From: Eledone cirrhosa
Lineage: Eukaryota
Direction: 5' to 3'
Length of the DNA stretch: 64,000 nucleotides
Assembly: GCA_964016885.1 (NCBI GenBank)
Contig: OZ024742.1
Span: forward strand, 266,724,001 to 266,788,000
The notes beneath the pieces were generated by a model. It searched no databases, was not told the origin of the DNA, and saw nothing but the letters and a program-made list of their open reading frames with translations. The position numbers and the translations under genes were made by a program. Numbering within the stretch: the first letter of the stretch is position 1; each line of letters begins with the position of its first letter. Below, one piece after another: positions 5,176 to 28,159 of this stretch.

Positions 5176-5349
5176 CCACACACACAGCAAGATGAAAGGA
5201 AAAAAACATAATTCCAAGGAAACTTTTACTGAAGACCTTTTTTTATTTCCCTTTCCCCTTACTGTTTCTTTTCTTCCTTCATTCCACTCTTTCTCTTCTC
5301 CATTCCTCCCTCATTTTCTATATTCTTTTAGTTTATTATTATTATTATT

Positions 5350-5543
5350 GTGGATTGGTAGAGGGTCAGACGCCATGCTTTGCAAGCAAAGAGTTACGGC
5401 CCTTTATTGTCTGATTTCAAATCTCACCGAGGTTAATTTTGCCTTTCATCCATATGAGGTCGATAAAATAAAGTACCAGTAATACACTGGGATAATTGCT
5501 GGCCTTGTGCCTATACTAGAAATCATTGTTATTATTATTATTA
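5350..5543 (+). mobile_element. tRNA-derived SINE with (TTA)n tail (diverged copy)
   Basis: Same family as 17922: degenerate B box, core GCCTTTCATCC..GGTCGATAAAATAAAGTACCAG, 3' GGCCTTGTGCC..AGAAA plus TTA tail; (TTA)n also on the 5' side. Confidence 0.9.
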
Positions 5544-5754
5544 TCGGTCTGTTCGGAAGATTTTTGCTCGCTCCCAGTAAGTCGCTTTATTTGCCTGTTA
5601 AAATTATTTGTTGTTAAATATTTCTTGTTGTGTAAGGGATATAAGCCCTTAGACTTTTCCATGTGAAGGGGAAAGTATAATGTTTGGGCCTTTTCGCCCA
5701 AATATTTGAACATTTTACTTCAAAAAAAATTGTTTAAAAAAACAAAAAAAAAAC

Positions 5755-7730
5755 ATGGCTGAGCCACGCACCCCCAGCAATATGTCTGCTGTCGTCTGAC
5801 AACGACGTAAAAGTTGAGAGGAGGGTTACAAACATTGTTACAACAGACACCACCACATACAACGTGAACAAAGACAACACAGAACACTAATTTTGAAAGA
5901 TTTACCACACCAACTAGAACAATAACAGCGTGAACCATAATACAGACAACAGAAAAAAATGACAACAAATGAAAAAAATGACAACAAATGCAACAACGAT
6001 ATGAACACCACTAACAAGAAAATAAACAACAACACCAACAGCAACAATACAAATTGCACCGAAAACAAGAACAACGGTGACACCAAAACACAACCAACTA
6101 CAACAGTGATAACAGCAACAACACCAACACCGTTCGTAGCAGTAGCAACAGCAACAACACCAACAACGAGACCAGTAGCGGCAGCAATAATGGTGCCGCT
6201 GAAAAAGGGGCCACTTCTTTCGCAGGTGTGGCCCGAAATATAGAAACAGTGCTAGTCACGGAGGAGGAGATGGCAGTCATAAGAGACATGGTGTTGAGAA
6301 ACGACAACAGAGTTTCCCTGAAACCCCCACCCGATTTCTTCAAAGACCCGCAACTGCGCACTGTGACTGACCGCACCGTAAGCAAAATGTGGCATCGGGT
6401 GGAGAGATCCACGGAGGCCCAAATCCAAAAGGCCTTGGGGTGCGTCTGGGCGCGCAAAACCCACATCACCCGAGGCAAAAAGTACGGCACAGTAGACGTA
6501 CTTTTCGCCACCCCCCAAGAGGCGAAGTCTCACTCTTTGGAAACACTAAAGAGTGAGGAGATAGTCTTGGTGCCCTCCTACTGCGGGCAGAAAATTGTGA
6601 GGGTCAAAGTGACACAGGTCCTGCCCGACGTGCCCATACCTTTGCTGGCCGCGTCTGTACTGGCTGGAATCGAGGGGAAGACCACCATGCTACAAATACA
6701 GAGAATGGGAAGAAAGAACTGGTCAGGAATAGGCATGCAAATGCTAATACAGACTGACCAGGAGTGCATCGAAGCCATCCCAGACATCATAGACCTCGAA
6801 GAAGGGCTCCATCTCCCTATAAGCGTGGAAGGAATGCGCCCAAAGTGCTATCTCTGGGGGTAGAAGGGTCACCTCAGGGCGTTCTTTCTGCAGAAGACAT
6901 CCAAGAAGAGGGCCCCCTCCTTCCGAAGCCTGATCCGCTGCTGCACAGAGCAGGGCAGGCAACAGAGGCAGAAGACCCTTCCATGGTGAGTAGGATGGCA
7001 ACGTCCGTGGAACCCATACCAAGGCCACGGACAACTAAACCAGCGGCAGCAGTGGCAACAGTCGCAGTAGCTACGCCGGCGGTAAAATCGCCGGAGTGGG
7101 CTCCACTACCATCACCAACAGCAGTGGAGCTCATGCCTCTTCCGGAAGCCGCGGGGTCCGACATGGAATGTGAGGCGGGAGGCAAGTGACAAACAGTCTG
7201 CCACAAAAAAGAAAAAAAGTAAAAAACCCTTAGCTTCACCCTCCAAAAGCGAAGGCAGATAAAAAGGGGTAAAGGCTGCAAGGACACTTGCAGCAACACC
7301 ACCACCATCACTATCACCACCACAAGCATCACCAACATCAACCACACTACCACCAGCATCACCAAAAACACCAACATCGCAAACACAACAAAACACACAC
7401 CCAACAGCAACAACAAGAAAACAGCAACAAAATCACCCCTCCCCCCAAAAAGTACACAGCCATAAACATGGCAAATAAAGAACTCCTACAACACATAAAG
7501 CAGCGCACACATCACAAAAAAAAACTACTACACCCCACCAAAACCAAGAACTCTCCCGACAAACATAAGCATCATTGAAATCTCAATAGAACATTACAAA
7601 CTTTTATAGCAAAAATTCTCCAACGCAGTTGGAGAATTCAGAGAGTGAGTTTATAAGACATCCTCTTGGAAACACCCTTGACCAACCAAAGGGACGGTTC
7701 TACTGTCCCTTCACCACACGACCAAAATAA
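5755..7730 (+). pseudogene. Tx1-A ORF1 remnant (low-complexity N-terminus, conserved core, zinc knuckle broken by a stop)
   Basis: ORF 6228-6863 aligns with Tx1-B ORF1 (QIQKALG.VWARKTHI.RG.KYGTVDV.F..VPSYCGQ..VEG.RP.C). Confidence 0.8.
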
Positions 7731-7766
7731 GTGATCCTTTCTCACTTACCCCGTTTCTCATCCAAC

Positions 7767-10700
7767 ATGGCCGTACTTAGAATAGGCAGTATAGATGTAC
7801 GTGGCCTGGGGTCATCTTGGAAGCAGGGCAACCTGCTCAGCGACCTCAGGTCACTAAACATAGATGTGGTGGCGATCAGCGATACCAGAATCTCCGAAGC
7901 ACGAGGCTTCGCACCGATCTTCGGCGGCTACGATGTATACGCATCTCCCAGCCGTCCAGGATTGGGGTGGGGTGTGTGTGTGTGTGGGGGGGGGGGGCGT
8001 GTTTTTTCGGAGAGACTTGGATCTCGCTATACGGGCCATCTTCCTGGACCCAGAAGGTAAGTCGGTGCTACTGGACCTGACCGGCAGCGAAGGCAATGCT
8101 TTCAGGCTAATAGCCGTCTACGCCCCAACAGGAGCAGGACGGCCAGATTTCTTCAGACGTCTAGATACCTTTCTTGGAACGTCCCGCTCTTAGTGTTAGT
8201 GGGTGACTGGAACGGTATCTTAGATGCACGCTGGGATTATATGGGGCTAGTAGACAGGACAGGAGGGTGTAAAAGCCTCAACAACCTGCTCAGACGTTTT
8301 GAACTGTCTGACAGGTATAGACTGGATTATCCGAATGTGCCAATGTGGACATTAGCAAACCGCATCGGGTCATCCAGATCGTATTTAGATAGGCTATTCT
8401 GTAGGGAAACAGATAAGGCTAGTGTAGGTTGTCCACAATTTAAAGTAATCGACTACACGGACCACAAATTTGTGATCTGTGAAGTTTAACTTAGATAGAT
8501 AGACTCCATAGGCAAGGGCCGGCTACTGGAAGCTGAACGTGTCGTTCCCGGCGCGCAAAGCTTACAGAGACCGGATTAGCGAATTAGTTAAGCGTGAGTT
8601 GACGGGTGCGATCATCAACAACAGGTGGTGGTTTACCATGAAAAGGGCTATTATAGTAGAATCGATAAGGTTTAGCAAAGGAGTAGTGATAGAGGAAAAT
8701 AGAGTAGAGGGAGAGTTAGTTAGAAAGCTAAATGAGGCTTTTAGGACAGGCATCGCAACCAATGTGCTTGCGGCGAGATTGGCACTCGACCAATTCTTCA
8801 ACGCAAAGCATGAAGGCTAAGGCACGAGGGGACGAAAGCCGTTCAATGGGCCCAGTGGTGGAGCCGCGACGTGGCAACAAGTCCACAATTCGGTCTTTGG
8901 CTGATCAAAATCTTAAACTCTGCTAAACGCAGAGTTTAAGATTTTGGCCAAGGTGTTAGCAAAGAGATTGGCACTTGTAGTCAGTGATCTGGTGGGAGAG
9001 GCGCAGATATACGCCATCCCGGACAGATCCATCTACGACAAGCTCCATCTCATGCGATACATCATAGAGAGGGTGGTTAAGGAACCTGGCACTTGTGGGG
9101 CCCTGATCAACTTCGATCAATCTAAATCATTTGATTGGGTCGACCATCGGTACCTGGCTGCGGTCCTCGATGCGGCCGGCTTCGGGCCCGTTTTTAGGGG
9201 CTGGATCGCATCGATGCATAGCGACATCTGCTTGATTATGAGGGTGAATGGTCACCTGTCACAGCCGTTCAGCATCATGCGCTCGGTCCGCCAGGGTTGC
9301 CCCCTCTCGTCCCTCTTGTACGTACTGGCTCTAGAGCCGTTACTACACAAATTGGAGACGATGAGGGGGGTCCCACGCGAACTGGGATGCGGGAGATCCG
9401 TGTCAGCTTACGCCGACGACGTCACCGTGGTGGTGTCGAGCACCAAACACGTCCAGATGCTCGGCACCACTCTCAAGTAATACGAGGCGGTGACATGAGC
9501 AAAGATAAAACCAGGAAAAGTCGGTGGGCTTGCAACTCGGCACCTGGAAAGCAAGTCCATACCGTCCGACAGCGTCGTGGGGCGCTGGACGGAAGGACCG
9601 GTTAAATTGCTCAAGGTCTGGTTCGGTCCGGACCTCCAGATGGAGAAAAACTGGAGCGAGGTGACGAGCTGGTTGGCCTCTCTCATCCAGAAATGGGCCG
9701 AGAGGAGGCTGTCTCTGAAAGGCCGAGCGGAGGTGGCGAATGCGTACATAACGTTCGTCATCTGCTACCGCCTGACACTCCTACCTTGCCCCGCCCAACT
9801 CTGACCAAAATGGAGCGCCTTCTCTTCCGCTTTTCGTGGAAGGGATGTGCTCTCATGGTCAGAAGATGCATTTGCTGTCAATACCCGTTGCGTGGAGGAC
9901 TAGGCATGCTGTGGCTGATGATACGCAAACATGCGCTGAGCCTGCGACATTTCTGGTCCTTCCTTGACGGTGAAAAGGTGTGGTCGCCGTTTGCCAGACG
10001 CGCTTTTTCCCAGCTTGTCTCCTTGACGGAGCTGCAGTCCTGGATCAGGAAAAGACCGAGGGATAGCGCTTGGAAGCTGGAATGTCTCAAGGCGCTCACT
10101 GCCCTCTACCGGCTGGGCACTAGATCGGTGGAATATCCACCTCGGCGTTCTATAGAGGGCTAGTGGAGGGAAAGAGCGACGACGCTCTCGGGGAGACGCT
10201 GTGCGTGGAAGACGATCAGCTGTTCGCTCTCTTCAAGACAACTTTCAGACCGGGGCTTATGGACAACTTCCAGAAATCTCTGGCCTGGCAGTGCTACCGG
10301 GGAGCGTTGCCGGTTCGGGATAAGCTCTACAGGCATGGAGGTGCTGTCAGCCGAGCCTGTCCGAGATGCGCGCAGGGCGACGAAACCTTTGTGCACGCAC
10401 TCGTTCAGTGCCCGAGGATTGTTGACTTGTGAAGCTATGTCGAACAGTTGCTGTCGCGTGTAGGGCGGATCCGGTTATCGACTGAATTCATTGTGAAGAT
10501 AACCCCGCCATCCTCCTTTAAAGAGGAGGACGGGCAGGCAGTTTTCATCTGCATGGTGGCCATGGCGAAAGAGATTGTGTGGTGGACAAGATTGAAAGGG
10601 TTGAAGACGGACACTTTCCTCTCCGGCCAATCCTGATTAACTTTTTCAAGTTTCACTTGAAGAGGAAAATCAGGGTGGAGAGGCAAGTGCTGTCTTCTAG

Positions 10701-10779
10701 TAAGTTTGTTGAAAGGTGGGTGAAAGTGGCAAGTCTGTTCCGAGTGAAGGCCCGATCTGAGTATACGCCTGTAGACTGA
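7767..10779 (+). pseudogene. Tx1-A ORF2 remnant (APE endonuclease, RT, zinc finger)
   Basis: IGSIDVRGL, VYAP, VGDWN, YLDR, TDHK, QGCPLS, YADD, CPRC..HAL..C; many frameshifts and a large internal deletion near 8905. Confidence 0.9.
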
Positions 10780-11058
10780 GGAGTGGGAAAAGTGAGAGAG
10801 GGCGCTTCTCTGATGGTCAGGGTGGCCGTGGTCTTCTGTGTGGTTTTCACCACGAGTGACCCTCGGAGGTTTCCCCATTCTTGGGAATTTTTGTTGTTTG
10901 AATTCTTTGGGATTTCTAGCCCGATTTTTTTATAACCTGTTTACACGACAAAAACCCACTTTGTATCATCCTGTACTGTCCTGTGCCGTCTCTAATGTTT
11001 TTCTTCGTGTCAGCCCCTATGGCCAATAAAGAAACCATTATTATTATTATTATTATTA

Positions 11059-13024
11059 CAGCTGCATTTATCTTGCTTTATGTTCATACGAGTTATCACC
11101 AAGTCACAACCAGTGACCTCAAGAGACAACAAGGTCCGCCATGTTCAAGAAAGAACATACATACTCACACATGCATCTTTAGGTGTTTAGACTTGATGTA
11201 CTTATATTGACAGCATCTTCCTTAGTATATGGGCAGTTCCCATTAGTACTATCTTTCGTATATCTCCTATACGCGGGTTTCCTGGGATTTGCGATAAGTA
11301 ATCATTAGACCCTTAGAGCGCCTACAACTACTGGTATTGTTTTAGTTCTCAATTTCCACATTTTTCCAATTTCTATCTCCAGGTCCTTATACTTGCTCAA
11401 TTTTTCAAATGTTTTTATAGATACATTCTTGTCTATTGGAACGGACATATCAATTAGCAGGCATACCCTCTTTTTAAAGTCCTTCAGTATTATATCAGGT
11501 CTATTTGCATCTATTTTTCGGTCTGTTTGGATGCTAAAGTTCCACAAGATTGAGATGTGATCTTTTTCAAGTATGGGAGGTGGTTGATGTGGAAGGTCAA
11601 AATGCTTACACATTATCCAATGTATGTATTGTGCGGCTCTGTCATGCCTGTTTAGGTATTCGGTTGGAGCTATGGGACTGCACATTGAAATTATATGATC
11701 AATGGTCTCTGGTTGTTTTTTTACATACACGGCATAATGGGCTGCATCCATTTTTTATTATGTTGGCTTGGTAGTTTTTTGTTGGCAGACACTGATCTTG
11801 TGCTGATATAATTAGTCGTTCAATCTCCGATTTCAGTTCTGAGGATGCCAAGCACTGATGGGTTAAAGTTTTGTCAACATCAGGATTATTAGCTCGTTCT
11901 GGGTATTTTCCATACAGAGGCTTTTCTTGCCATTTCTTAGCGAGTTTCTGTAGCAGTTCTTTCTTTGCAGTTACTTTTACCTGCTTTGCTTTTTCTGTGT
12001 TTTCCATTTCAGCAGTAAATGGGACTTCTGAAATTTGTAGTCCATTACTATATCTTTCGTAATGGAGTATGATCTTTTGATGTTTTCGTGTTTCAAAACG
12101 AGTTTGATCACCCAATCATGTAGATAATCCAATTGTTGCAGTTTTCAACGCAATATCTAACTGGATTAACCCACGTCCTCCTTCTTTTCTAGGGAGATAT
12201 ATTCTATCTATATCTGCCTTAGGGTGATGCATTCTGTGCATGGTTAAGAATTTTCGAATTTTTGCATCGAGCCTACGGATATCTGTGTTTGACCAGTTGA
12301 TGACATTATAACTGTAGGTTACTACTGGTATGGCAAGCGTGTTTATGGCATCGATCCTATTCCTTGCATTCAATTCTGTTCTTAAGATTGCTCTTACTCT
12401 GCAGTAACATTCCTTCCTTATCCTGTCCCTCATTGTCGAGTGCTTGATTCCGTCTCCTTCACAAACACATAGATATTTGTAAGTTTCCTCTTGATCAAGT
12501 TCTCTTATCACATTCCCCCGATCAAGATTAATGTCTGAACTTTTCAGCAGCTTTCCTCTGATGAACGTTGCTTTGGCGAATTTATCTAGTCCAAACTCCA
12601 TTTTAATGTCATCACTGAACTGCTCCACAGTGGATAATAGCCCTTGAAATTGTTCATCATTTTTTGCAAATAGTTTCAGGTCATCCATGTAGAACAAGTG
12701 ATTAATGGTTTTGTCATAGACTTTATATCCTTGTTTTGTTTCATTGAGCATTTTACTTAATGGTATAAGTGCGATGCAGAATAAAAGCGGTGATAAAGGG
12801 TCACCCTGACAAATTCCACAATTAATATTAACTTCTCCAGCTTGCAGTGATTTTGTTTCACTATTCAAAAGGAGTGTCGTTTTCCATGTCTTCATACTGA
12901 ATGACAAATACCTCCTGACAACGGGAGATATTTTAAAAATCTCTAAACATTTTTCAATCCAACTGTGTGGCAAACTATCGAATGCTTTTTTATAATCTAT
13001 CCAAGCAATTGATAGATTTTTGTG
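11059..13024 (-). mobile_element. R4/Dong-clade RLE LINE, family B, 5'-truncated and decayed
   Basis: [43 protein letters not shown] restriction-like endonuclease; TAA/TTA repeats at both ends. Confidence 0.92.
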
Positions 13025-13075
13025 TATTATTATTATTACTATTATTATTATTATTATTATTATTATTGTTGTTAT

Positions 13076-16000
13076 TCCTTGAATCTCAGTCATTGATGTT
13101 GGTTAACTGGAAAGTCCGTTGGATTGAATATCAAGCCACTACCTGCAGCCTCAGATATTCAGGACGTATCGGAGGGTTCTTGCTGTTCCAAGCAAGCATG
13201 CCTTTTGAAGCGTTCCAAAAAGCGTGAAGGGGCCGATTTTCTTTAACCATCCCTGGAAACATTTGGAGATAGTCCCCAGTGCGCCTATGACAATCGGGAT
13301 CACTTTGACTTCATGGCAGTTCCAAATCCTTTTCACCTCCCACTTTAGGTCCTGGTATCGGTTAATTTTCTCCCTCTCCTTCTCTTGCACTCTCGTGTCG
13401 AACGGGCAGGCCACATCCACAATCAGACACGATCTTTTTTCTTTGTCCACAACCACCAGGTCAGGTCTATTGTGTTCCAGTTTTTTGTCCGTCTGTATCC
13501 TAAAATCCCACAGCACCTTCACCTGATTGTTCTCCATCACCGCCTCTGGCCTATGCTCATACCATTTCTCAGAATGTGGTAAATTGTTTACTTTGCACAG
13601 GTGCCAGTGGATCACCCTGCCCATCACATCGTGTCTCCAGCCCTTATAGTGGGTCTGGGCTAGGTGTTTACACTCGGACACAATGTGAGCCACAGTCTCC
13701 TCTCTCTCTCCACAGATCCTGCACAGTGGGCTAGCCTCCTCCTTGTAGATATGGTGCTTCAACCACTTCGTTTTGAGGGCCTGCTCCTGCGCAGCGATTA
13801 GCATTCCTTCTGTAGCCTTTTTGAGGTCTCCTCTTCTCAACCAGTTCCATGTCTGTGGATCTCTAAATTCAGTTTTCTCAAAGAAGGTACTATGAAGGGA
13901 TTTTCCCTTAAGGCTGCTCTTCCTCCTCGATGTTATTTCCTCCTTGGACATCCCCTGGCCTACTGTCCCCTCCTTCAGTACAGTTCTGAGCATTGGCTCC
14001 TTACTATAGGTCACGTATTTGTATAGGTTGTTTTTCTCCATCTGAACACAGTCCTCTATGCTGATAAGACCTCTTCCACCCTCAGATCTCCTTAGGTAGA
14101 GTCTATCGACATCACTCCTCTTGTGGAACATGTTGTAGATAGTCAATAGCTTCCTAGTCTTCCTATCCATTTCTTTTTGTTCAGCAACATTCCATCTCAG
14201 AATTCCCGCACTGTACCTAATAATAGACACAGCTCGGGAATTTACTGCGCTTATGGCATTTCTGCTGTTCAGATGTGACTTCAATACGCTCCTTACTCTC
14301 CGAATGTATTCAGTTCTTAACAATTCCTTCATTTTTTTGTTCTTTATGCCATCAGCCTCCAGAACGCCCAAATACTTGTATCCTTCCTCAGAGTCAATTT
14401 CCTTTATCATCTCACCTGTTGGTATCTGGATCCCGTTACTTCTGCTCAACCTACCCCTCTTCATCACAATGACTCCACATTTACCAATACCAAACTGCAT
14501 ACATATATCACTGCTGAAAATACGGACAGTGTCAACAAGCACATCCAACTCCTTCTCACTTTTCCCGAAGAGCTTAAGATCGTCCATGAAGAGGAGGTGA
14601 TTGATGGTAAGCTCTCCCCTTCCCAACTTGTATCCTGCTCTCACTTTTCGCAGCATAATGGTCAAGGGCATCAGGGCAAGGACAAACAACAGAGGGGACA
14701 GGCTATCTCCCTGGAAGATACCTCTCTTGATCTTCACGCTTCCCAAGGATACTCCAGTTGATGTCAACTCTGTCTCCCAGGACCCCATACTCCTGCCTAG
14801 CAACTGTCTGATGTTATCTGCCACCCTGAAGATCTCCAGGCTTTTGGTGATCCAGGAATGAGGCACCATGTCAAATGCCTTTCTGTAGTCTATCCATCCC
14901 ATGGCAAGATCAGTGTGTCTCCTCCTGCAATTCCCCATTACCATCTTATCAATAAGTAACTGGTCCTTTGTACCACGTGACTTCTTTCGGCATCCTTTCT
15001 GATCGTCCGGTAACAAGTTGTTTGTGTGGAGGTGATGGTAGATTTCCTCAGACACAATGCTCGTCAACAGTTTCCACATTACGGACAGACATGTGATAGG
15101 TCTATAGTTGGTAACATCATTACCCTTGATTCGGTCTTTCATTATCAGAACTGTGGAACCTTTTGTCAACCACTCTGGCACCTCACCCGACACCAAGCAG
15201 TCATTGAACATGGCCGTCAGCTTCGGGTGGAGGGATGTTAAATGTTTAATCCAATACCCCTGCACACCATCTGGGCCTGGTGATTTCCAGTTGGTTAGTT
15301 TTTTGGCCTGCCCCTTAAGAGTTTCAACTGTGATACTCAAATCAGTTTGTTGTTGTGCCTGCTCACCGATCTCCCTCTGTACTGTCTCAATCCACCCTGC
15401 CTGGGCATTGTGTCTAACATCCTGCTCCCATATTCCTCTCCAGAATGTTTTAGTTTGCTCCGCCCCAGGGATCAAGTCGTTGCCTCTTTCTTTCCCCTCA
15501 AGCTGTCCAAACAGCATCTTCTGGTTGTTGTCGAACATGCGGTTCTGTTTATACTGACTGACTCTGTTCTCGTATCGCCTGATTTTTGCACTCTTTGCTA
15601 CAATGCGTTGCTTCAGTTCCTCTATGATAATATTTAGCTTTTTCCTCCTAGTTTTGTATTTTATTTCCAGTCTATTTTTAGTGCCTATGTTTTTTAGTGT
15701 CCCATTCAGTAGTGACTCAAGCTTTCCTATGTCATTTCTCATTTCCCCGATTTGCCCACTCAGTCGTTTCTTCCACCACGGCTCTGCTCTTTCTTGTCTG
15801 TTGTTTCCTCTCGCTTTTATACCAAGTAGTTTCCTCACCGTATTTGCTGTTGCTTTGAGGATATTGTTGCACTGGTGAAGGCTCCTCGCCTCAAGGTATG
15901 GGATGACTTTGTTTACCTTAGCTGTTGTTTCTTTTAACTTTTTCCTGTCTACAAATCTTAGGTTCATAGGTCTCCCACTATCATTGTTCAATTCATCTAC

Positions 16001-16880
16001 CACTAAATTTAGGATGTCAACCGAATCTTGTCCTAGCCCGTCAGCATTCATCTCCTCAGTGGCCGTATCTCTGTTCCAGGTATTATTTATCTCAGTATTC
16101 AGATCATTGTCTGCTTCGGGTGGTTCCTCCGTTCTCAGGACCTCTTCACCTTCATTTCCCACTGGCTCGCTTGTCTGGCATACTACACCCGCCATCTCCA
16201 AGCCATTCACTCTGCTCAGTTCCTCCAGTTCCAGCTCGCTTATCCATCCATTAGTTCTTATTACCCGAGCCTGCCCGGCCAATTTTTGTTCATCTAATTT
16301 AAATAAACCAATCTCGTTCCAGATGTTATGCATCCGTCTCCTGTAGCCCCTCTCCCTGGGGTTACTTTTCAGGTAACATTGCATAACAGTTCTATTCAAT
16401 TCTTTCGTCCAGTTGGTTCTGGCCCCTTTCCTTCTTCTCCTTCCTCCAACATCAGCAGTATTTGGTTGACAGTCAGGTTCCTGCTGCTGAGCCAGGGGGC
16501 ACCTGTTGGGTGAGAGTCTGTCACATGACGTTCTAGTCTCCATTTCACCGTTATTCGAACTGTTTATGTTCGATATTTAAACACTCTTATCGAGGATTGG
16601 CGAATGTATGGTTACATATCCATCTGTGGATCCGCCATTCCACTTGGCCCTTGTGTGGCATTATCACCACGCTGTATACGAACACACATAAACAAACAAA
16701 CACACAGGCAGAAAGGGCCCCAAAAATGAATAAGCATAAGTTTCATTGTAATGTAGTGTTCGAATGTCTGACTTAGTTTTTGTTTTTTAAGTTTTAGTCC
16801 CCCCCCCCCCCCTCTTCTCTGTCCGTCCGCCTGCTTCTCTCTTCATTCTTATTTTCTTTACGTTTTTTTTTTTTTTTTAA
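13076..16880 (-). mobile_element. R4/Dong-clade LINE, family C, with intact ORF
   Basis: Single long ORF, ~330-bp 5' region, short 3' UTR; embedded in (TAA)n on both sides. Confidence 0.95.
13151..16543 (-). CDS. Dong/R4 polyprotein (RT, CCHC zinc finger, PD-(D/E)xK RLE), 1130 aa, uninterrupted
   Basis: WKSPGPDG, NYRPITCL, QGDSLSPLLF, FMDDLK, YKYLG, CRICG..H..C, RHD, RPDLVVVD..DVACP..K are all intact. Confidence 0.95.
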   Translation of the reverse strand: METRTSCDRLSPNRCPLAQQQEPDCQPNTADVGGRRRRKGARTNWTKELNRTVMQCYLKSNPRERGYRRRMHNIWNEIGLFKLDEQKLAGQARVIRTNGWISELELEELSRVNGLEMAGVVCQTSEPVGNEGEEVLRTEEPPEADNDLNTEINNTWNRDTATEEMNADGLGQDSVDILNLVVDELNNDSGRPMNLRFVDRKKLKETTAKVNKVIPYLEARSLHQCNNILKATANTVRKLLGIKARGNNRQERAEPWWKKRLSGQIGEMRNDIGKLESLLNGTLKNIGTKNRLEIKYKTRRKKLNIIIEELKQRIVAKSAKIRRYENRVSQYKQNRMFDNNQKMLFGQLEGKERGNDLIPGAEQTKTFWRGIWEQDVRHNAQAGWIETVQREIGEQAQQQTDLSITVETLKGQAKKLTNWKSPGPDGVQGYWIKHLTSLHPKLTAMFNDCLVSGEVPEWLTKGSTVLIMKDRIKGNDVTNYRPITCLSVMWKLLTSIVSEEIYHHLHTNNLLPDDQKGCRKKSRGTKDQLLIDKMVMGNCRRRHTDLAMGWIDYRKAFDMVPHSWITKSLEIFRVADNIRQLLGRSMGSWETELTSTGVSLGSVKIKRGIFQGDSLSPLLFVLALMPLTIMLRKVRAGYKLGRGELTINHLLFMDDLKLFGKSEKELDVLVDTVRIFSSDICMQFGIGKCGVIVMKRGRLSRSNGIQIPTGEMIKEIDSEEGYKYLGVLEADGIKNKKMKELLRTEYIRRVRSVLKSHLNSRNAISAVNSRAVSIIRYSAGILRWNVAEQKEMDRKTRKLLTIYNMFHKRSDVDRLYLRRSEGGRGLISIEDCVQMEKNNLYKYVTYSKEPMLRTVLKEGTVGQGMSKEEITSRRKSSLKGKSLHSTFFEKTEFRDPQTWNWLRRGDLKKATEGMLIAAQEQALKTKWLKHHIYKEEASPLCRICGEREETVAHIVSECKHLAQTHYKGWRHDVMGRVIHWHLCKVNNLPHSEKWYEHRPEAVMENNQVKVLWDFRIQTDKKLEHNRPDLVVVDKEKRSCLIVDVACPFDTRVQEKEREKINRYQDLKWEVKRIWNCHEVKVIPIVIGALGTISKCFQGWLKKIGPFTLFGTLQKACLLGTARTLRYVLNI

Positions 16881-16921
16881 ATTATTATTATTATTATTAT
16901 TATTATTATTGTTGTTGTTAT

Positions 16922-17672
16922 TCCTTGAATCTCAGTCATTGATGTTGGTTAACTGGAAAGTCCGTTGGATTGAATATCAAGCCACTACCTGCAGCCTCAG
17001 ATATTCAGGACGTATCGGAGGGTTCTTGCTGTTCCAAGCAAGCATGCCTTTTGAAGCGTTCCAAAAAGCGTGAAGGGGCCGATTTTCTTTAACCATCCCT
17101 GGAAACTTTTGGAGATAGTCCCCAGTGCGCCTATGACAATCGGGATCACTTTGACTTCATGGCAGTTCCAAATCCTTTTCACCTCCCACTTTAGGTCCTG
17201 GTATCGGTTAATTTTCTCCCTCTCCTTCTCTTGCACTCTCGTGTCGAACGGGTAGGCCACATCCACAATCAGACACGTTCTTTTTTCTTTGTCCACAACC
17301 ACCAGGTCAGGTCTATTGTGTTCCAGTTTTTTGTCCGTCTGTATCCTAAAATCCCACAGCACCTTCACCTGATTGTTCTCCATCACCGCCTCTGGCCTAT
17401 GCTCATACCATTTCTCAGAATGTGGTAAATTGTTTACTTTGTACAGGTGCCAGTGGATCACCCTGCCCATCACATCGTGTCTCCAGCCCTTATAGTGGGT
17501 CTGGGCTAGGTGTTTACACTCGGACACAATGTGAGCCACAGTCTCCTCTCTCTCTCCACAGATCCTGCACAGTGGGCTAGCCTCCTCCTTGTAGATATGG
17601 TGCTTCAACCACTTCGTTTTGAGGGCCTGCTCCTGCGCAGCCATTAGCATTCCTTCTGTAGCCTTTTTGAGG
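16922..17672 (-). mobile_element. Dong family C, 5'-truncated copy (zinc finger plus RLE)
   Basis: Near-identical to 13076-13826; 5' junction directly into (TAA)n. Confidence 0.95.
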
Positions 17673-17744
<72 letters not shown>

Positions 17745-17750
17745 GTTGTT

Positions 17751-17921
17751 GGCGACCTACGTAGTAAATCGTATCATCGTGAGCTCCGCAAAGGTTTGTT
17801 ATTTTCAGTTGTTTAAAATTGTCATTTATGGACAATTTTTATTGTTAACTGTATATAAGTGCACATACATTGTTTTCTGAAAAGGACACTCAAAAAGAAA
17901 GCATTATTATTATTATTATTA
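17751..17921 (+). mobile_element. Mini-Tx1: Tx1-B 5' leader fused to the Tx1-B 3' terminus
   Basis: 17751-17897 matches 20057-20203, then AAGCATT(ATT)n as at 25949-25997. Confidence 0.8.
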
Positions 17922-18110
17922 GGGCGGTGGATTGGCAGTATCGGTAGAGGGTCGGACGCCATGCTTTCCAGCATAGTTACGTCCCTTTACGATCTGAGTT
18001 CAAATCCCGCCGAGGTTGACTTTGCCTTTCATCCTTACGGGGTCGATAAAATAAAGTACCAGTAATGCACCGGGTGATTGTTGGCCTTGTGCCTAAAGTA
18101 GAAACAATTA

Positions 18111-18149
<39 letters not shown>
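17922..18149 (+). mobile_element. tRNA-derived SINE, full length, (TTA)n tail
   Basis: A box TGGCAGTATCGG, B box GAGTTCAAATCC, central GCCTTTCATCCTTACGGGGTCGATAAAATAAAGTACCAG (resembles the Meta/Sauria-type SINE core, from recall), 3' stem-loop. Confidence 0.93.
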
Positions 18150-18150
<1 letters not shown>

Positions 18151-20022
18151 AGTTGCATTTATCTTGCTTTATGTTCATACGAGTTATCACCAAGTCACAA
18201 CCAGTGACCTCAAGAGACAACAAGGTCCGCCATGTTCAAGAAAGAATATACATACTCACACATGCATCTTTAGTCTTTAGACTTGTGATGTACTTATATT
18301 GACAGAATCTTCCTTAGTATATGGGCAGTTCCCATTAGTACTATCTTTTGTATTTCTCCTATACGCGGGTTTCCTGGGATTTGCGATAAGTAATCATTAG
18401 ACCACTTAGGTATCATTCCCAGAGCGGCTACAACCACTGGTATTGTTTTAGTTCTCAATTTCCACATTTTTCCAATTTCTATCTCCAGGTCCTTATACTT
18501 GCTCAATTTTACCAATTTCTATCTCCAGGTCCTTATACTTGCTCAATTTTTCAAATGTTTTTATGGATACATTCTTGTCTATTGGAACAGACATATCAAT
18601 TAGCAGGCATACCCTCTTTTGAAAGTCCTTCAATATTATATCAGGTCTATTTGCATCTATTTTTCGGTCTATTTGGATGCTAAAGTTCCACAAGATTGAG
18701 ATGCGATCTTTTTCAAGTATGGGAGGTGGTTGATGCTCCCAACAATTCTTTTGATGGGGCAGGTCAAAATGCTTACACATTATCCAATGTATGTATTGTG
18801 CAGCTCTGTCATGCCTGTTAAGGTATTCGGTTGGAGCTATAGGACTGCACATTGAAATTATATGGTCAATCATCTCTGGTTGTTTTTTGCATACACGGCA
18901 TAATGGGCTGCATCCATTTTTTATTATGTTGGCTTAGTAATTTTTTGTTGGCAGACACTGATCTTGTGCTGATATAATCAGTCCTTCAGTTTCCGATTTC
19001 AGTCCAGAGGATGCCAACGACTGATGGGTTAAAGTTTTGTCAACATCAGAATTGTTAGCTCGCTCTGGGTATTTTCCATACAGAGGCTTTTCTTGCCATT
19101 TCTTAGCCAGTTTCTGTAGCAGTTCTTTCTTTGCAGTTACTTTTACCTGCTTTGCTTTTTCTGTGTTTTCCATTTCAGCAGTAAATGGGACTTCTGAAAT
19201 TTGTAGTCCATTACTGTATCTTTGTGCATCTTTTGTAATGGAATATGATCTTTTGATGCTTTCGTGTTTCAAAACGAGTTTGATCATCCAATTGTTGCAG
19301 TTTTCAACGCAATGTCTAACTGGATTAACCCACGTCCTCCTTCTTTCATAGGGAGATATATTCTATCTGTATCTGCCTTAGGGTGATGCATTCTGATGAA
19401 TTTTCGAATTTTTGTATCGAGCCTACGGATCTCTGTGCTTGACCAGTTGATGACATTGTAACTGTAGGTTACTACTGGTATGGCAAGCGTGTTTATGGCA
19501 TCGATCCTATTCCTTGCATTCAATTCTGTTCTTAAGATTGCTCTTACTCTGCGGTAACATTCCTTCCTTATCCTTTCCCTCATTGTCGAGCGCTTGATTC
19601 CGTCTCCTTCACAAACACATAGATATTTGTAAGTTTCCTCTTGATCAAGTTCTCTTATCACATTCCCCCGATCAAGATTAATGTCTGAACTTTTCAGCAG
19701 CTTTCCTCTGATGAACGTTGCTTTGGCGAATTTATCTAGTCCAAACTCCATTTTAATGTCATCACTGAACTGCTCCACAGTGGATAATAGCCCTTGCAAT
19801 TGTTCATCATTTTTTGCAAATAGTTTCAGGTCATCCATGTAGAACAAGTGATTAATGGTTTTGTCATAGACTTTATATCCATGTTTTGTTTCATTGAGCA
19901 TTTTACTTAATGGTATAAGTGCGATGCAGAATAAAAGCGGTGATAAAGAGTCACCCTGAAAAATTCCACAATTAATATTAACTTCTCCAGCTTCCAGTGA
20001 TTTTGTTTCACTATTCAAAAGG
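18150..20022 (-). mobile_element. Dong family B, second 5'-truncated copy
   Basis: High identity to 11059-12872; 17-bp deletion near 19285 and a ~40-bp tandem duplication at ~18472-18550. Confidence 0.93.
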
Positions 20023-20024
20023 TA

Positions 20025-20056
<32 letters not shown>

Positions 20057-20264
20057 GGCGACCTACGTAGTAAATCGTATCATCGTGAGCTCCGCAAAGG
20101 TTTGTTATTTCCGTTTGTTAAAAATTGCCATTTATGGAAAATTTTATTGTTAACTGTTTATAAGCACACATACATTGTTTTCCGAAAAGGATACCCAAAA
20201 AGATTGGGGCCTTGTGCCCAAAATTTTAACTTTTATTATTATCAAAAAATTTCTTTGAAAAAAA

Positions 20265-22248
20265 ATGGCTACTTCACCTCTGCACGAAGCAGCTGAAAGC
20301 CTTCCTCACAAAATAACACCTCACACCGACACCACCATTGTAAATGTTACTACGTTTGCCAACACAAAAAAAAATATAAGCAGTAGCAATATTTTAAATT
20401 TGTCTCAGGCAGACATTCATTTCCCGCCATTACCAATGACTGCAGGTGTTAAAGCCTCCACCACCACCACCACCGCGACAACCACCACCACCACCACCAC
20501 CGCGACAACAGAAACAAAAGAAGAAAAAAATAAATTAACTCGTGATGTCGAAATGAAATCAAGCAAAATGGACTCTTCCCCACCAAAGACGACGGACGTC
20601 ACCACCACCACAACTTAAACTAAAATTAATATTAACGATAGCAACAACAACAACAATGACATTATAACCCCCCCCTCAGTTTCGCCAGAGTAGCAAAACA
20701 ATTCGAAGCATTTACGGTAACTCAGGAAGATTTAGAAAATGCCAAACAAATCGTAAAGAAAGATGGGTACAGGGTCAGCCTCACCCCCCACCTAATAAAA
20801 TGGAGCATCGGCGCCTATGCACCGTGTCGTATAGAACAATAAATGTAAAATCGCGCCGAGTGGAACGGGCATCCGAGTCTCAAATCCAAAAAGCTTTGGG
20901 ACATGTGTGGGCAAGAAAAACCCACATCAGACGTGGGCAAAAGTATGGAACCGTGGATGTGTTCTTTGAAACACCAGAGGAGGCTAGAGAACACTCCATG
21001 GCCCCATTAAAAAGTGACGACTTCACACTCGTCCCAAGCTATTGTGGCCAGAGACTCGTAAAGATCAGGGTGACCCACGTTCCACCGGCCATCGAAATTC
21101 CCTGGCTAATAGCGGCTGTCCTAGCCAGCATCGAAGCCAACACGAAAATAATAGCAATAGCAAAAGAAAAGCAGGAAAACTGGTCCGGATCTGGGATGGA
21201 GCTCCTGATCCAAGCGGACCAAAAAAGCATTGAGGAGATCCCAGAGGTAATAGACCTCACTGACGGCAGCCACCTCACGGTAATTGTCGAGGGCAGAAGA
21301 CCTAGGTGTGTCGTTTGTGGTGAAGGAACCCACCTAAGGGCTTTCTGCCCTCAGGCTAAAAGGTTGAGACCACCTCTCCTACCCACCCCAGTGACACAAC
21401 CATCAACACCACCAGTAGCAGAGATGGCAGCAACAACTGTAGCAGCAACAACAGAAGCAACTATAACAGCAACAACCCCAGCAACAGTAGCAAAACCAAC
21501 ACCACTACCACCACCACCAAAACCAACACCACCACCACCCAACGCTTCAGAACTAGCACCAGCGCCTACACCATCCACCGCACCACAACCAAAACTAACG
21601 GCTGTGGAGGATTTTCCACTCCCCGGCCTATCACAACTGGAGACAGATTGTGACGACGAGGAGTGGGAAACGATATCCGGAAAAAAAAAAAGAAACCAAA
21701 AAAGAAAAAATTCTCTTCCTTCCCCCTCCAAAAACAAAATACAGAGGGAAACAAATAAACTAAGAAACAAAAAAGTTAGGACAGATATGCCACCATCCAC
21801 ACCAGCATCACCAACCCCATCAACCCAAACACCAACACCATCACCATCATTAACTCCAACACCACCATCACCTACACCACAAAAGTCACCAAAATGCGAA
21901 ACAGAAACAAACCCACAACAAACGCAAACAAAACAAAACAACCAAAACGATACACACTACACAGCATTAAATTTGAACAACAAGCAATTATTACACTACA
22001 TCCAACACAACACCAGCATCACAGAAAAAGACTACACAACAACCCCCAAATCCACACCACCTCCACACATACAAATCACTCGCATCACACAGAAAACGTA
22101 CATGACACTAAAACAAAAATTCCCCAAAGACATCGGAGACTTCCGACAAGCACTCTCCAGGAGGATTTATAAGGACATCCTTCCTGAGGAGGCCACAAGC
22201 AGTGAAAAGGATGGAAAAGCCGTCCTTCCCCTACGAGAAGTAAGGTAA
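20265..22248 (+). pseudogene. Tx1-B ORF1 (nucleic-acid-binding protein with CCHC knuckle), disrupted N-terminally
   Basis: ORFs 20265-20618 and 20800-22248; knuckle CVVCGEGTHLRAFC; Pro/Thr-rich tail; basic KKKRNQKRK. Confidence 0.85.
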
Positions 22249-22282
22249 GTGGTCTTTCCCATCTTTTCCACTCCTTTTCAAC

Positions 22283-25051
22283 ATGACCTCACTCAGAATA
22301 GGCAGCATAAATGCGCGTGGCTTGGGGTCGTCATGGAAGCAGGGCCACCTGCTCAACGACCTCAGGTCACTAAACATAGATGTAGTGGCCATCAGCGAGA
22401 CCAGAATCTCCGAAGCACAGGCTTTCGCACCGATCTTCGGCGGCTACGATGTGTACGCATCTCCCAGCCGTCCGGGATCGGGAGGAGGAGTTGCTGTGCT
22501 TTTTCGGAGAGGTTTGGATCTTGCCATACGGGCCATCTTCCTGGACCCAGAAGGTAAGTTAGTGGTGCTGGACGTGACCAGCGGAGACGGGCAAGCTTTC
22601 AGGTTAGTGGCCGTCTATGCCCCGACAGGAGCAGGGCGGCCTGATTTCTTCCGGCGTCTGGAGACCTTTCTTGGAACGTCCCGCTCTTTAGTGTTAGTGG
22701 GCGACTGGAACGGGATCTTAGATGCACGCTGGGATTGTGTGGGATTAGTGGATAGGGAAGGAGGGTGCAAGAGTCTCACCAACCTGCTCAGACGTTTTGA
22801 ACTGTCTGACAGGTACCGAATGAATTTCCCGAATGTACCAATGTGGACTTGGACAAATCGCATAGGGTCATCCAGATCATATCTAGATAGAGTATTTTGT
22901 AGGGAAATAGATAGGTCTAGCATAGGCTGTCCACAATTCAAGATAGTCAGCTACACGGACCACAAATTCGTGATCTGTGTGCTTGACTTAGATAGGCTTC
23001 ATAGACGAGGACCCGGCTACTGGAAGCTAAACGCGTCCTTACCAGCGCGCAAGGCCTACAGAGACCGGATTAGCGAACTAGTTAAGCGGGCGTTGACGGG
23101 GGCCATCGTCAACAACAAGTGGTGGTTTGCTCTGAAAAGAGCAATTAGAATAGAGTCCATTAGGTTTAGTAAGACTTTAGCAATAGAGAAAAATAGAGCA
23201 GAGGGAGAATTAGTTAGAAAATTAGATGAGGCGCTTAGCAAAGGCATCGCGACCGACGTACTTGCGGCGAAATTGGCCCTTGACCAATTCTTCAATGCAA
23301 AGCACGAAGGCTGCGTTGTCAGAGCTAGGGTGCGTGCTCTCAGACACGAGGGGACGAAAGCCGTTCAATGGGCCCGAGTGGCGGAGGCGCGTCGTGGCAA
23401 CAAAGCCACGATCCGGTCTTTGGTGGACCACGACGGGCGCATGCTACTCGATCCCGGGCAAATGTGTGAAGCTTTTCAGCGACACTTCGCTCAACTGTTC
23501 GGGGGCAGTGGCGGGCCGGATCGAGGGATGGACTTTAGTGTCTACCTCGACGGACTGCCGCGGCTTTCGTCCACTGAGGCGGAGTGTTGCGAAAAGCCGA
23601 TAACAACCGCTGAAGTACGGGATGCAATGACTAGTTGCACAAGGGGTAAATCGCCTGGTTTGGATGGTCTGCCCTATGAACTTTACGTACAAATGCCAAA
23701 CTTGTTCGGAGGCCTCTTGGCGGACGTCTACTGCAACTGGCAACAGAACGGGAGAATTCCCAGCTCTGTGAGCCGAGGAGCGGTGGCGCTGCTGAGAAAG
23801 GATCCGAACAAGGGGGATAACATAGATAATTTTAGGCCCATAACTCTGCTAAACACAGAGTTCAAGATTTTGGCCAAGCTGCTAGCAAAGAGGTTGGCGC
23901 TTGTCGTTGGTGGTCTGGTGGGAGAGGCACAGACATGCGCCATTCCCGACAGATCCATCCACGACAACCTCCACCTCATGCGATACATCGTAGAGAGGGT
24001 AGCTAGGGAACCTGGCACGGGTGGGTCTTTGATCAATTTAGATCAGTCGAAAGCCTTCGATAGGGTCGACCATCGTTACCTAGCGGCAGTCCTGAGGGCG
24101 GCTGGCTTTGGGCCCGTCTTCAGAGGCTGGATCGCTGCCATGCACAGCGACATCTGCTCTGTAGTGAGAGTGAACGGTCACCTTTCGGAACCGTTCAACA
24201 TCATGCGCTCAGTCCGCCAAGGATGTCCCCTCTCGTCCCTATTGTACGTATTGACTCTCGAGCCATTACTGCACAAACTGGAGACGTTGAGGGGGGTCCC
24301 GCGCGAACTAGGATGCGGAAGATCCGTGTCAGCATATGCCGACGATGTCACCGTAGTGGTGTCGAACGCCAAACACATCGAGGCGATCGGCACTACACTA
24401 AGAGAATACGAAGCGGTGACAGGAGCAATGATCAACCAGGAAAAGTCAGTGGGCCTGCAGCTCGGCACCTGGAGAGGCAGGTCCATGCCGTCCAACAGCG
24501 TCGTCGGGCGCTGGACGGACGGACCGGTTAAATTGCTAGGCGTCTGGTTCGGTCCAGACCTCCAGACGGACAAAAACTGGGACGAGGTGACGAGCAGGGT
24601 GGCTTCTCTCACCCAGAAATGGGCCGAGAGGAAGCTATCCCTGAAAGGTCGAGCGGAGGTGGCGAATGCGTACATCGCATCCGTCATCTACTACCGCCTG
24701 ACCGTCGTACCTTGTCCTAAGCCCCGCCTGACTGCGCTGGAGCGTTTGCTCTTTCGCTTCTTGTGGAAGGGACGCGCTCCGATGGTCAGGCGGTCCATCT
24801 GCTGTCAACACCCGCTACGTGGAGGGCTCGGCATGCCGTGGCTGATGATGCGCAGACACGCGCTCAGGTTACGACATCTCCACCTCTTCCTCGACGGTGA
24901 TCAGGTGTGGTCGCCGTTTGCTAGACGCGTCTTTCCACAGCTCGTCTCCTTGACGCAGCTGCATTCCTGGGTCAAGCGAAGACCGAGAGGGAGCGCTTGG
25001 GGACTGGAATGTCTTCAGGCGCTCACAGCACTGACCAATCGGTCAATGTGA
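22283..25051 (+). CDS. Tx1-B ORF2 (APE endonuclease plus RT), 922 aa open; C-terminal zinc finger continues after frameshifts to ~25700
   Basis: IGSINARGL, ISET, VYAP, VGDWN, YLDR, TDHK, KSPGLDG, NFRPITLLN, DQSKAFD, QGCPLS, YADD; CPRC..HAL..C in ORF 25233-25667. Confidence 0.92.
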   Translation: MTSLRIGSINARGLGSSWKQGHLLNDLRSLNIDVVAISETRISEAQAFAPIFGGYDVYASPSRPGSGGGVAVLFRRGLDLAIRAIFLDPEGKLVVLDVTSGDGQAFRLVAVYAPTGAGRPDFFRRLETFLGTSRSLVLVGDWNGILDARWDCVGLVDREGGCKSLTNLLRRFELSDRYRMNFPNVPMWTWTNRIGSSRSYLDRVFCREIDRSSIGCPQFKIVSYTDHKFVICVLDLDRLHRRGPGYWKLNASLPARKAYRDRISELVKRALTGAIVNNKWWFALKRAIRIESIRFSKTLAIEKNRAEGELVRKLDEALSKGIATDVLAAKLALDQFFNAKHEGCVVRARVRALRHEGTKAVQWARVAEARRGNKATIRSLVDHDGRMLLDPGQMCEAFQRHFAQLFGGSGGPDRGMDFSVYLDGLPRLSSTEAECCEKPITTAEVRDAMTSCTRGKSPGLDGLPYELYVQMPNLFGGLLADVYCNWQQNGRIPSSVSRGAVALLRKDPNKGDNIDNFRPITLLNTEFKILAKLLAKRLALVVGGLVGEAQTCAIPDRSIHDNLHLMRYIVERVAREPGTGGSLINLDQSKAFDRVDHRYLAAVLRAAGFGPVFRGWIAAMHSDICSVVRVNGHLSEPFNIMRSVRQGCPLSSLLYVLTLEPLLHKLETLRGVPRELGCGRSVSAYADDVTVVVSNAKHIEAIGTTLREYEAVTGAMINQEKSVGLQLGTWRGRSMPSNSVVGRWTDGPVKLLGVWFGPDLQTDKNWDEVTSRVASLTQKWAERKLSLKGRAEVANAYIASVIYYRLTVVPCPKPRLTALERLLFRFLWKGRAPMVRRSICCQHPLRGGLGMPWLMMRRHALRLRHLHLFLDGDQVWSPFARRVFPQLVSLTQLHSWVKRRPRGSAWGLECLQALTALTNRSM

Positions 25052-25951
25052 TCGGTGGAAACTCCATCTTGGTGTTCTATAGCGGATTAGTGAAGGGGAA
25101 GAGCGACGACGTACTTGGAGAAACTCTAGGCGTCGGCGAAAATCAACTAGCCAATCTCTTCGGAAAGGACTTTCGGGCCGGCCCATTGACAACTTCCAGA
25201 AATCCCTGGCCTGGCAGTGCTACCGAGGAGCTTTGCCATTTCGGGATAAATTCTACAGGCATGGAGGTGCCGTCAGCTGGGCATGTCCGAGATGCGCGCA
25301 GGGCGACGAAACCGTCCTGCACGCACTCGTCCAGTGTCCGAGCATTGCTGACTTGTGGGTTTATGTCGAACACCTGCTGTCACGTGTAGGACCTATCCAG
25401 CTATCAGCTGAGTCCATCGTGACGATTACCCCGCCCTCTTCCTTTAGCCGGGAAGGGCAGACAGTTATTATCTGTCTGGTGGCCATGGCGAAAGAGATAG
25501 TATGGTGGACACGTTTGAAAGGGCTGAAGACGAGCACTTACCTCTTCGGTGATGCCCTGATTAACTTTTTCAAATTTCATTTGAAAAGGAAAATCAGGGT
25601 TGAGAGGGAAGTGCCCTCTTCCCAGAATTTTGTTGAAAGATGGGTGAGAGAAGCAAGTATGGCCTGAGTGAATGGGCCTACTCTGAGTATGTGTCTGTAA
25701 ATTAAAGGTGGAAAACTGGGAAAGGGCACTTGCGCTGGTGGTCAGGGTCACTGTGGCCTTTTAATGGGCTTTCTCCACAAATGTCCCGCGGAAGTCTCCC
25801 CCTATTGGGGAATTTCTCATTGTTATTTTTTTGTTACATCCTCTGTTTTTGTTTTTTTTACACTCAGAAATGCCCATTTGCACCGTCCTGTATTGTCCTG
25901 TACTGTCCTTAATGTCAACTTTATGTAAACCCTTGTGGTTAATAAAGAAAG

Positions 25952-25997
<46 letters not shown>

Positions 25998-25999
<2 letters not shown>

Positions 26000-26066
26000 A
26001 AGTACCAGTAATGTACTGGATAATTGGTAGCCTTGTGCCAAAAGTAGAAACAATTATTATTATTAT
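25998..26066 (+). mobile_element. 5'-truncated SINE attached to the Tx1-B tail
   Basis: aaagtaccagtaatgtactggataattggtagccttgtgccaaaagtagaaacaatt(att)n. Confidence 0.85.
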
Positions 26067-28135: not shown

Positions 28136-28159
28136 AATTATCTACATAAAATTAAGCAG

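What the first reader, a model, noticed from the sequence alone, without database searches (positions are those of the whole stretch)
5333..26066. 20.7-kb retrotransposon train built entirely on (TTA)n/(TAA)n junctions
Seen: SINE(+), Tx1-A(+), Dong-B(-), Dong-C(-), Dong-C(-), mini-Tx1(+), SINE(+), Dong-B(-), Tx1-B(+) and SINE(+) lie end to end. Every junction is a TTA tract and no element interrupts another's body. Orientation is strict: APE-type Tx1 and SINE read into TTA, RLE-type Dong reads into TAA. Dong/Rex6 targeting of (TAA)n is established. Inference: two unrelated endonuclease systems use opposite strands of one microsatellite and each tail regenerates the target, giving a self-extending landing pad. 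Smaller versions occur at 47.6-50.8 kb and 55-61.7 kb.
Basis: partly seen in the sequence, partly recalled or inferred. Interest (0 to 1): 0.75.

Follow-up and report, generated by a model that had tools for sequence, protein, structure and literature searches.

The report
Opposite-facing retrotransposons stacked on ATT repeats
Ten jumping-gene copies sit end to end on short ATT repeats, two unrelated kinds facing opposite ways here and at nearly every other site checked in this genome, likely because their enzymes cut opposite strands of the repeat and each insertion likely leaves repeat on both sides for the next.

Summary
The train is real: 10 elements, 11 ATT tracts, 20,382 of 20,734 bp element sequence. 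The rule is genome-wide: full-length Tx1-like copies follow (TTA)3+ in 73 of 77, Dong-like 3' ends run into (TAA)3+ in 58 of 58 (background 0.19%); 106 of 108 neighbours obey the orientation rule. Corrections: the SINE has no ATT tail (it lands at ATTA with a short target duplication, mostly outside tracts, and also interrupts LINEs elsewhere); tail evidence was found only for Dong, so regeneration is likely by tract splitting and duplication. The 'mini-Tx1' is a one-off deletion; the two 'smaller versions' are not mixed trains. Added here: the train sits in an AT-rich spot of an older Penelope-like repeat; 7 of 10 paralogues carry independent Tx1/SINE insertions there, one is empty. The SINE shares the Tx1 3' hairpin register and is likely Tx1-mobilised. 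Every part has a precedent (Dong, Kibi/Koshi, SART/TRAS, SINEU); an ATT-targeting Tx1 was not found in the papers searched. This scan found the same system many times on other DNA of this genome.

The parts
5092..5332 (.). Left part of the host repeat (terminal region of a Penelope-like element)
   Evidence: 76% to positions 1-261 of empty paralogue L330
5333..5349 (+). ATT tract 0, (TTA)5
   Evidence: bridged to the left flank by one contig of run X1 (5122-5379)
5350..5525 (+). SINE 1 (older copy, about 89% to best relatives)
5545..11036 (+). Tx1-A, full-length, decayed (stops, frameshifts, 396-bp deletion); about 80% to Tx1-B over ORF2, about 90% to own family
11059..13025 (-). Dong-B 1, 5'-truncated, decayed (94%)
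13066..16880 (-). Dong-C 1: intact 1141-codon frame (13151-16576; RT FMDD 663, CCHC 952-969, RHD 981, PD 1039, D 1054, K 1070); lacks 749 nt of 5' UTR; 98.6% to a full-length copy
16909..17673 (-). Dong-C 2, last 765 nt (99.2%)
17749..17902 (+). Tx1-B copy deleted internally between two AAAGA words (first about 148 nt plus last few nt); single event
17922..18108 (+). SINE 2, young (99.5%); 3' hairpin with CTTGT loop, 16 nt before ATTA
18150..20022 (-). Dong-B 2, 5'-truncated at another point than Dong-B 1; 91% to it
20055..25952 (+). Tx1-B, full-length, 98% to relatives; ORF1 with CCHC knuckle, ORF2 APE-RT ending early at 25051 (935 against 1152 codons in intact copies); 3' hairpin with CTTGT loop, 16 nt before ATTA
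25999..26053 (+). SINE 3, last 55 nt
26054..26066 (+). ATT tract 10, (TTA)4 (tracts 1-9 lie between the elements listed)
26071..26227 (.). Right part of the same host repeat (positions 421-593 of L330; about 160 bp of host missing at the train)
26250..26772 (-). Decayed RT fragment of the host; Penelope-like by recalled motifs
   Evidence: RVT_1 E 6e-7

Best explanation
This is a pile-up of ten separate insertions on one ATT/TAA repeat, in which Tx1-like LINEs and a SINE read into ATT and Dong-like LINEs read into TAA, likely because the two enzyme classes nick and prime on opposite strands of the repeat. Shown: anatomy, independent ages and break points, genome-wide target and orientation rule, SINE target duplications at A-T-Y|ATTAT, and an AT-rich seed in an older host repeat that paralogues were hit at independently. 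Inferred: Tx1 APE nicks the TAA strand and Dong RLE the TTA strand for target-primed reverse transcription; each insertion splits a tract and duplicates about 10-19 bp, Dong adds a (TAA)n tail, slippage lengthens tracts, so a train of k elements offers k+1 targets; the SINE is carried by Tx1 proteins through the shared 3' hairpin, with looser targeting.
For: 5' flank (TTA)3+: Tx1-B 29 of 29, second Tx1-B subfamily 19 of 19, Tx1-A 25 of 29, none with TAA; 3' flank: Tx1-B 27 of 29 TTA, Dong-C 29 of 29 and Dong-B 29 of 29 TAA; background 319 of 170,880 windows. Copies lacking their 5' end also start at the tract (Tx1-B 14 of 19, Dong-C 23 of 31, Dong-B 21 of 30; none on the opposite strand), so it is target, not element head. 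Unselected neighbours: 106 of 108 follow the rule; in the unselected 600 kb 15 of 15. SINE: ATTA/GTTA after the end in 28 of 29 and 43 of 51; duplication called in 26 of 29 and 29 of 51 (shuffled pairs 14% and 10%); A at -3 in 17 of 26 and 18 of 29, C/T at -1 in 24 of 26 and 24 of 29. SINE and Tx1 both end hairpin (CTTGT loop, different but pairing stems) + 16 nt + ATTA. Catalytic motifs present in both enzymes. Host seed hit in 7 of 10 paralogues.
Against: No cleavage or retrotransposition assay. Target duplications of Tx1 and Dong cannot be measured inside pure repeats. The hairpins are short and not more stable than shuffles (z -1.3, -1.1, -0.9). The SINE is far less tract-bound than Tx1-A/B, so its helper may be another Tx1 family. 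56 of 164 ends have no library neighbour; 2 of 108 break the rule (L070, an inverted Dong piece; L146, where a TAA run turns into a TTA run). Searches return the 30 best matches, which favours young, similar copies. About 160 bp of host is missing, so deletion or recombination also acted. No long read spans the train.
Confidence: 0.75

Rival explanations
1. Priming, not cutting, picks the site: RNA 3' ends (read-through AUUA for Tx1 and SINE, UAA tail for Dong) anneal to nicks or slips in ATT repeats, which by itself fixes opposite orientations; the endonucleases are loose.
For: Dong carries a TAA tail; read-through Tx1 and SINE RNA would contain AUUA; orientation follows without any enzyme specificity.
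Against: SINE sites show preference at -3 and -1, outside the duplicated and annealed stretch, and 3 of 29 start with GTTA; young Tx1-B copies have 6-29 units upstream in 29 of 29, more than a short anneal needs; microsatellite specificity is reported for both clades (PMC4494074, PMC7998251 passages).
Confidence: 0.15
2. Elements land at short ATTA seeds anywhere; tracts grow afterwards by slippage and neighbours gather because such regions tolerate insertions.
For: Fits the SINE; the host seed has only (ATT)3; the train lies among decayed repeats.
Against: Tx1-B copies 99% or more alike already have long tracts; SINE duplications, made at similar times, have mostly not expanded; tolerance gives no end-to-end joints.
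Confidence: 0.07
3. The train is a tandem or segmental duplication product or an assembly error at low-complexity joints.
For: Repeated family names; short tandem duplicates exist elsewhere (L062/L063, L122/L124); no long read seen.
Against: Same-family copies differ (Dong-B 91%, Dong-C 98.4%, SINEs 81-88%) and break at different points; the Dong-B/Dong-C joint has no full-length second match among 40 scored of 485 candidates; both flanks are successive parts of one host repeat; one contig bridges the left joint (the run may be the assembly's own source).
Confidence: 0.03

Closest known systems
Dong (R4 clade; Bombyx mori, ostracod Dong1/2; PMC7998251 and PMC3774820, passages read)
   Same: One ORF with RT and C-terminal restriction-like endonuclease; sits in (TAA)n, stated as usual for insects, molluscs and cnidarians.
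   Different: Here two Dong-like families 40% identical share tracts with an APE element facing the other way; 5' ribozyme not shown.
Kibi (TC)n, Koshi (TTC)n, crocodilian Tx1 on (TTCC)n/(TTTC)n (PMC4494074, passages and section 16 read)
   Same: Two-ORF APE LINEs of the L1/Tx1 group confined to a microsatellite.
   Different: Target is (ATT)n, not pyrimidine-only; invertebrate host; shared with an RLE clade. Kinship with Kibi/Koshi not tested.
SART and TRAS of Bombyx telomeric (TTAGG)n (PMC7265360, passages read)
   Same: Two LINE families insert in one short repeat in opposite orientation; SART needs at least three units.
   Different: SART and TRAS both use AP-like endonucleases and sit in telomeric repeats; here the enzymes are of unrelated classes and the repeat is dispersed.
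SINEU with Tx1-Mar (PMC4494074)
   Same: A SINE assigned to Tx1 machinery by shared target; targeting can be weaker than the LINE's.
   Different: Here the link includes a 3' hairpin in identical register; head looks tRNA-like (by eye), about 2% of sampled DNA.

Membership tests
R4/Dong clade | Single ORF: RT, CCHC, C-terminal PD-(D/E)xK endonuclease, no APE | tested here: met
   Pfam RVT_1, no Exo_endo_phos; best solved relatives are R2 proteins with a second stretch over 1030-1102; motifs
R4/Dong clade | Inserted in (TAA)n | tested here: met
   58 of 58 3' ends; 44 of 61 copies lacking the 5' end also start at TAA
R4/Dong clade | N-terminal diverged Myb/SANT domain, no zinc fingers (PMC7998251) | tested here: inconclusive
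   No N-terminal zinc finger seen in the translation; no Pfam Myb hit
R4/Dong clade | 5' HDV-like ribozyme (PMC3774820) | tested here: inconclusive
   No Rfam match to E 5 on the 5' kb of full-length L260
R4/Dong clade | RT tree groups with named R4, Dong, Rex6 rather than HERO or NeSL | not testable with these tools
   120 best homologues listed carry no clade name
Tx1 clade | ORF1 with CCHC knuckle; ORF2 APE-RT-zinc finger of the L1 group | tested here: met
   best solved match LINE-1 ORF2p E 7e-53; only named homologue of 18 is 'Transposon TX1 uncharacterized 149 kDa protein', 32%
Tx1 clade | Target preference (over 20% of flanks, the rule of PMC4494074) | tested here: met
   73 of 77 full-length 5' ends at (TTA)3+
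Tx1 clade | RT tree placement with Tx1L, Keno, Kibi, Koshi | not testable with these tools
   No named reference sequences held
SINE mobilised by Tx1 | Short target duplication at the LINE's target motif | tested here: met
SINE mobilised by Tx1 | 3' end shared with the LINE | tested here: inconclusive
   Same loop, pairing stems and 16-nt spacing, but the shared stretch is short and folding z is weak
SINE mobilised by Tx1 | tRNA-derived head | tested here: inconclusive
   A/B-box-like words by eye (recalled); no tRNA match in Rfam
SART/TRAS-type system | Opposite orientations in one short repeat | tested here: met
SART/TRAS-type system | Telomeric (TTAGG)n target, both partners APE | tested here: not met
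   Target is ATT, mid-contig; one partner is RLE

The most novel reading that the evidence does not exclude
A self-amplifying guild: an (ATT)n-specific Tx1 lineage, its hairpin-sharing SINE and two Dong lineages build each other's targets, so insertions attract insertions, soak up much of recent LINE activity in gene-free trains, and have even left a captured neighbour's 3' end (hairpin + 16 nt + TTATTATTA) in the Tx1 5' UTR.
Probability: 0.35. Interest if true: 0.68.

Novelty: new variant of a known kind. Interest (0 to 1): 0.5.

Why it matters
It extends Tx1 microsatellite targeting to (ATT)n and gives a case where an AP-type and a restriction-type endonuclease appear to have converged on one repeat from opposite strands. 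The SINE's thousands of non-repeat sites give a readable cut motif that the LINE's own sites hide. With intact young copies of both LINEs, cleavage and trans-mobilisation tests are direct, and the trains allow a test of preferential attachment in how repeat-rich genomes grow.

Tried and rejected
Tail model for all three classes: rejected for the SINE, unsupported for Tx1. Mini-Tx1 as a non-autonomous family: rejected. Long-read or empty-allele check: one run of contigs only, share 0.33; laying it on 17000-27200 gave only repeat noise, and its depths are not copy numbers. Rfam: no ribozyme, no tRNA head. Homologue search for Dong-C gave no clade names. PMC309301 (original Dong note) is not held; nothing read. 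Paper searches for an ATT/TAA-targeting Tx1 or for octopus AAT-retrotransposon association: searches gave no such report (77 and 78 returned 0 papers). PMC13282606 and PMC8967140 (passages) list Dong-R4 and L1-Tx1 in octopus without targets; PMC4640811 and PMC3747384 (passages) gave background only. Not seen, and could bear on novelty: Kojima and Fujiwara 2004, Repbase entries, Fig. 3 and supplementary figures of PMC4494074. No RT tree was built. Structure prediction was not run.

Full report
Setting. The window is G000:C3:266,724,001-266,788,000 in a 3.0-Gb assembly.

Observation. Elements fill 20,382 of 20,734 bp and tracts 352 bp. Compared with longer copies from other loci, no LINE copy holds an extra stretch over 40 bp. 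Same-family copies differ in sequence (Dong-B 91%, Dong-C 98.4%, SINEs 81-88%), in break point and in similarity to their nearest fetched relatives (89-90% for SINE 1 and Tx1-A, 94% for Dong-B, 98-99.5% for Dong-C, Tx1-B, SINE 2), so they are separate insertions of different ages. The two 'smaller versions' are weaker than claimed: 47.6-50.8 kb has a Dong-like copy and SINE pieces on the same strand, and 55-61.7 kb has only Dong-C. The mini-Tx1 is one internally deleted Tx1-B.

Identity. Dong-C has an intact 1141-codon frame with RT, CCHC, RHD and PD...D...K motifs and no APE; its best solved relatives are R2 proteins. Dong-B is 40% identical over 736 residues. Tx1-B has an ORF1 with a CCHC knuckle and an APE-RT-zinc finger ORF2, nearest solved protein LINE-1 ORF2p, only named homologue a 'Transposon TX1' protein. 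Four of 12 fetched full-length loci have an unbroken 1152-codon ORF2. Clade names rest on architecture and target; no tree was possible.

Genome-wide test. Six element ends were searched and the best 19-29 non-self loci read. (TTA)3+ lies within 30 nt of the 5' end in 29 of 29 Tx1-B, 19 of 19 second-subfamily and 25 of 29 Tx1-A copies; at 3' ends, 27 of 29 Tx1-B have TTA, 29 of 29 Dong-C and 29 of 29 Dong-B have TAA; background is 0.19% in 60 evenly spaced 10-kb samples. A seventh search (Dong-C 5') missed the true 5' end, which lies about 750 nt further up, and was not counted. Copies lacking the 5' end still start at the tract in 14 of 19, 23 of 31 and 21 of 30, never on the opposite strand. 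Of 164 ends, 108 abut another library element (75 LINE, 33 SINE; background 1.0% and 1.9%), and 106 of 108 obey the rule; three junction strings repeat, leaving 104 distinct. In the unselected sample 14 of 25 (TTA)4+ runs touch a library element and 15 of 15 contacts obey the rule. These searches favour young copies, and first-look candidate counts (180-1731) are lower bounds.

What regenerates the target. The SINE (95 hits, 2.0% of the sample) brings no ATT tail: it is followed by ATTA/GTTA in 28 of 29 young and 43 of 51 sampled copies, with a duplication called in 26 and 29 (about 8-20 nt, one mismatch allowed; shuffled control 14% and 10%), and by (ATT)3 in only 3 and 7. Its site reads A-T-Y|ATTAT, a loose (ATT)n in register, including bases outside the duplication. 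It often lands right behind another SINE and sometimes inside LINE bodies. Tx1-B 3' joints are at times imperfect from the first units, which argues against a fixed tail. Dong shows added (TAA)n where the site can be read: L123 has a 10-nt duplication plus five more units, L096 and L089 have a TAA run with none upstream. So growth is best explained by splitting and duplication for all, plus a tail for Dong and slippage (inferred).

SINE partner. SINE, Tx1-A and Tx1-B all end in a hairpin with a five-base CTTGT (Tx1-A copy here CCTAT) loop, stems that differ yet pair (TGGC/GCCA, AACC/GGTT, AGCC/GGCC), exactly 16 nt, then ATTA. The fold is predicted in each but is no more stable than shuffles. 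With the shared site motif this makes Tx1 the likely helper; which Tx1 family is open.

The seed. Both flanks match one older repeat, followed by a decayed RT that looks Penelope-like (name from recalled motifs). In the empty paralogue L330 the two flanks lie 160 bp apart around an AT-rich stretch whose longest ATT run is three units. Of 10 paralogues covering that stretch, 7 carry Tx1 or SINE sequence there (L315, L317, L318, L319, L325, L326, L327), 1 is empty and 2 end in other sequence (L328, L329); 3 further loci (L312, L316, L320) did not cover it and were left out. These loci were picked by flank similarity only. Thus a few-unit seed grew to 352 bp of tract and 20 kb of elements, with about 160 bp of host lost.

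Assembly. One contig of run X1 bridges flank, first tract and SINE 1; the Dong-B/Dong-C joint has no second full match among 40 scored candidates. No long read was available.

Mechanism. By standard target-primed reverse transcription (established knowledge), an element reading into ATT is primed from a nick in the TAA strand and one reading into TAA from the TTA strand. Hence opposite-strand nicking by APE and RLE (inferred, 0.75), against priming-only choice (0.15), later expansion (0.07) and artefact (0.03).

Known and new. Dong on (TAA)n is in print (PMC7998251, passages); Tx1 on (TC)n, (TTC)n, (TTCC)n/(TTTC)n and a Tx1-carried SINE too (PMC4494074, passages and section 16); opposite insertion in one repeat is known for SART/TRAS (PMC7265360, passages). 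An (ATT)n Tx1 and sharing between RLE and APE clades were not found in eight searches, but Repbase, Kojima and Fujiwara 2004 and figure supplements were not seen. Earlier unreviewed notes of this scan report the same system at many other places in this genome; my reading was fixed before I saw them, and they are not independent support. Verdict: real, a new variant of known kinds, interest 0.5.

Noticed in passing
window 20199-20241 and 5679-5717: The 5' UTR of Tx1-B holds a second copy of the 3'-end signature (GGGC-CTTGT-GCCC hairpin, 16 nt, then TTATTATTA), kept in 12 of 12 full-length copies; Tx1-A has a stronger hairpin at the same place (z -4.2). Possibly a captured neighbour's 3' end or a second protein-binding site.
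   Followed up: partly
L254 (flipped coordinates 4424-8140): An APE-RT LINE that looks RTE-like (recalled) lies between ATT tracts reading into TTA, next to Dong-B: a possible third clade using the tracts.
   Followed up: no
window 52502-52540; L042, L128, L149, L155, L158: An abundant repeat ends in a short (TTA)4 that serves as seed for Tx1-B, Dong-B and SINE insertions at several loci.
   Followed up: partly
window 61655-61870; L055, L056, L075, L088, L271, L297: (TTC/GAA)n runs often adjoin the ATT tracts; may mark another family's tail or target.
   Followed up: no
window 27198-29600: Older Tx1-like fragments (65-72% to Tx1-B) with a Dong-type endonuclease fragment between them (about 28080-28560) and no ATT tracts.
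   Followed up: no
window 1985-3821: PIF1 helicase fragments, likely a decayed Helitron.
   Followed up: no
window 58888-59797: Tandem duplication of about 460 bp of a Dong-C 5' UTR.
   Followed up: no
L014 97-1265: About 25 tandem copies of the first 44 nt of the SINE head.
   Followed up: no
window 4998-5175: An 88% inverted repeat at the left end of the host repeat; the same arrangement recurs in paralogues.
   Followed up: no
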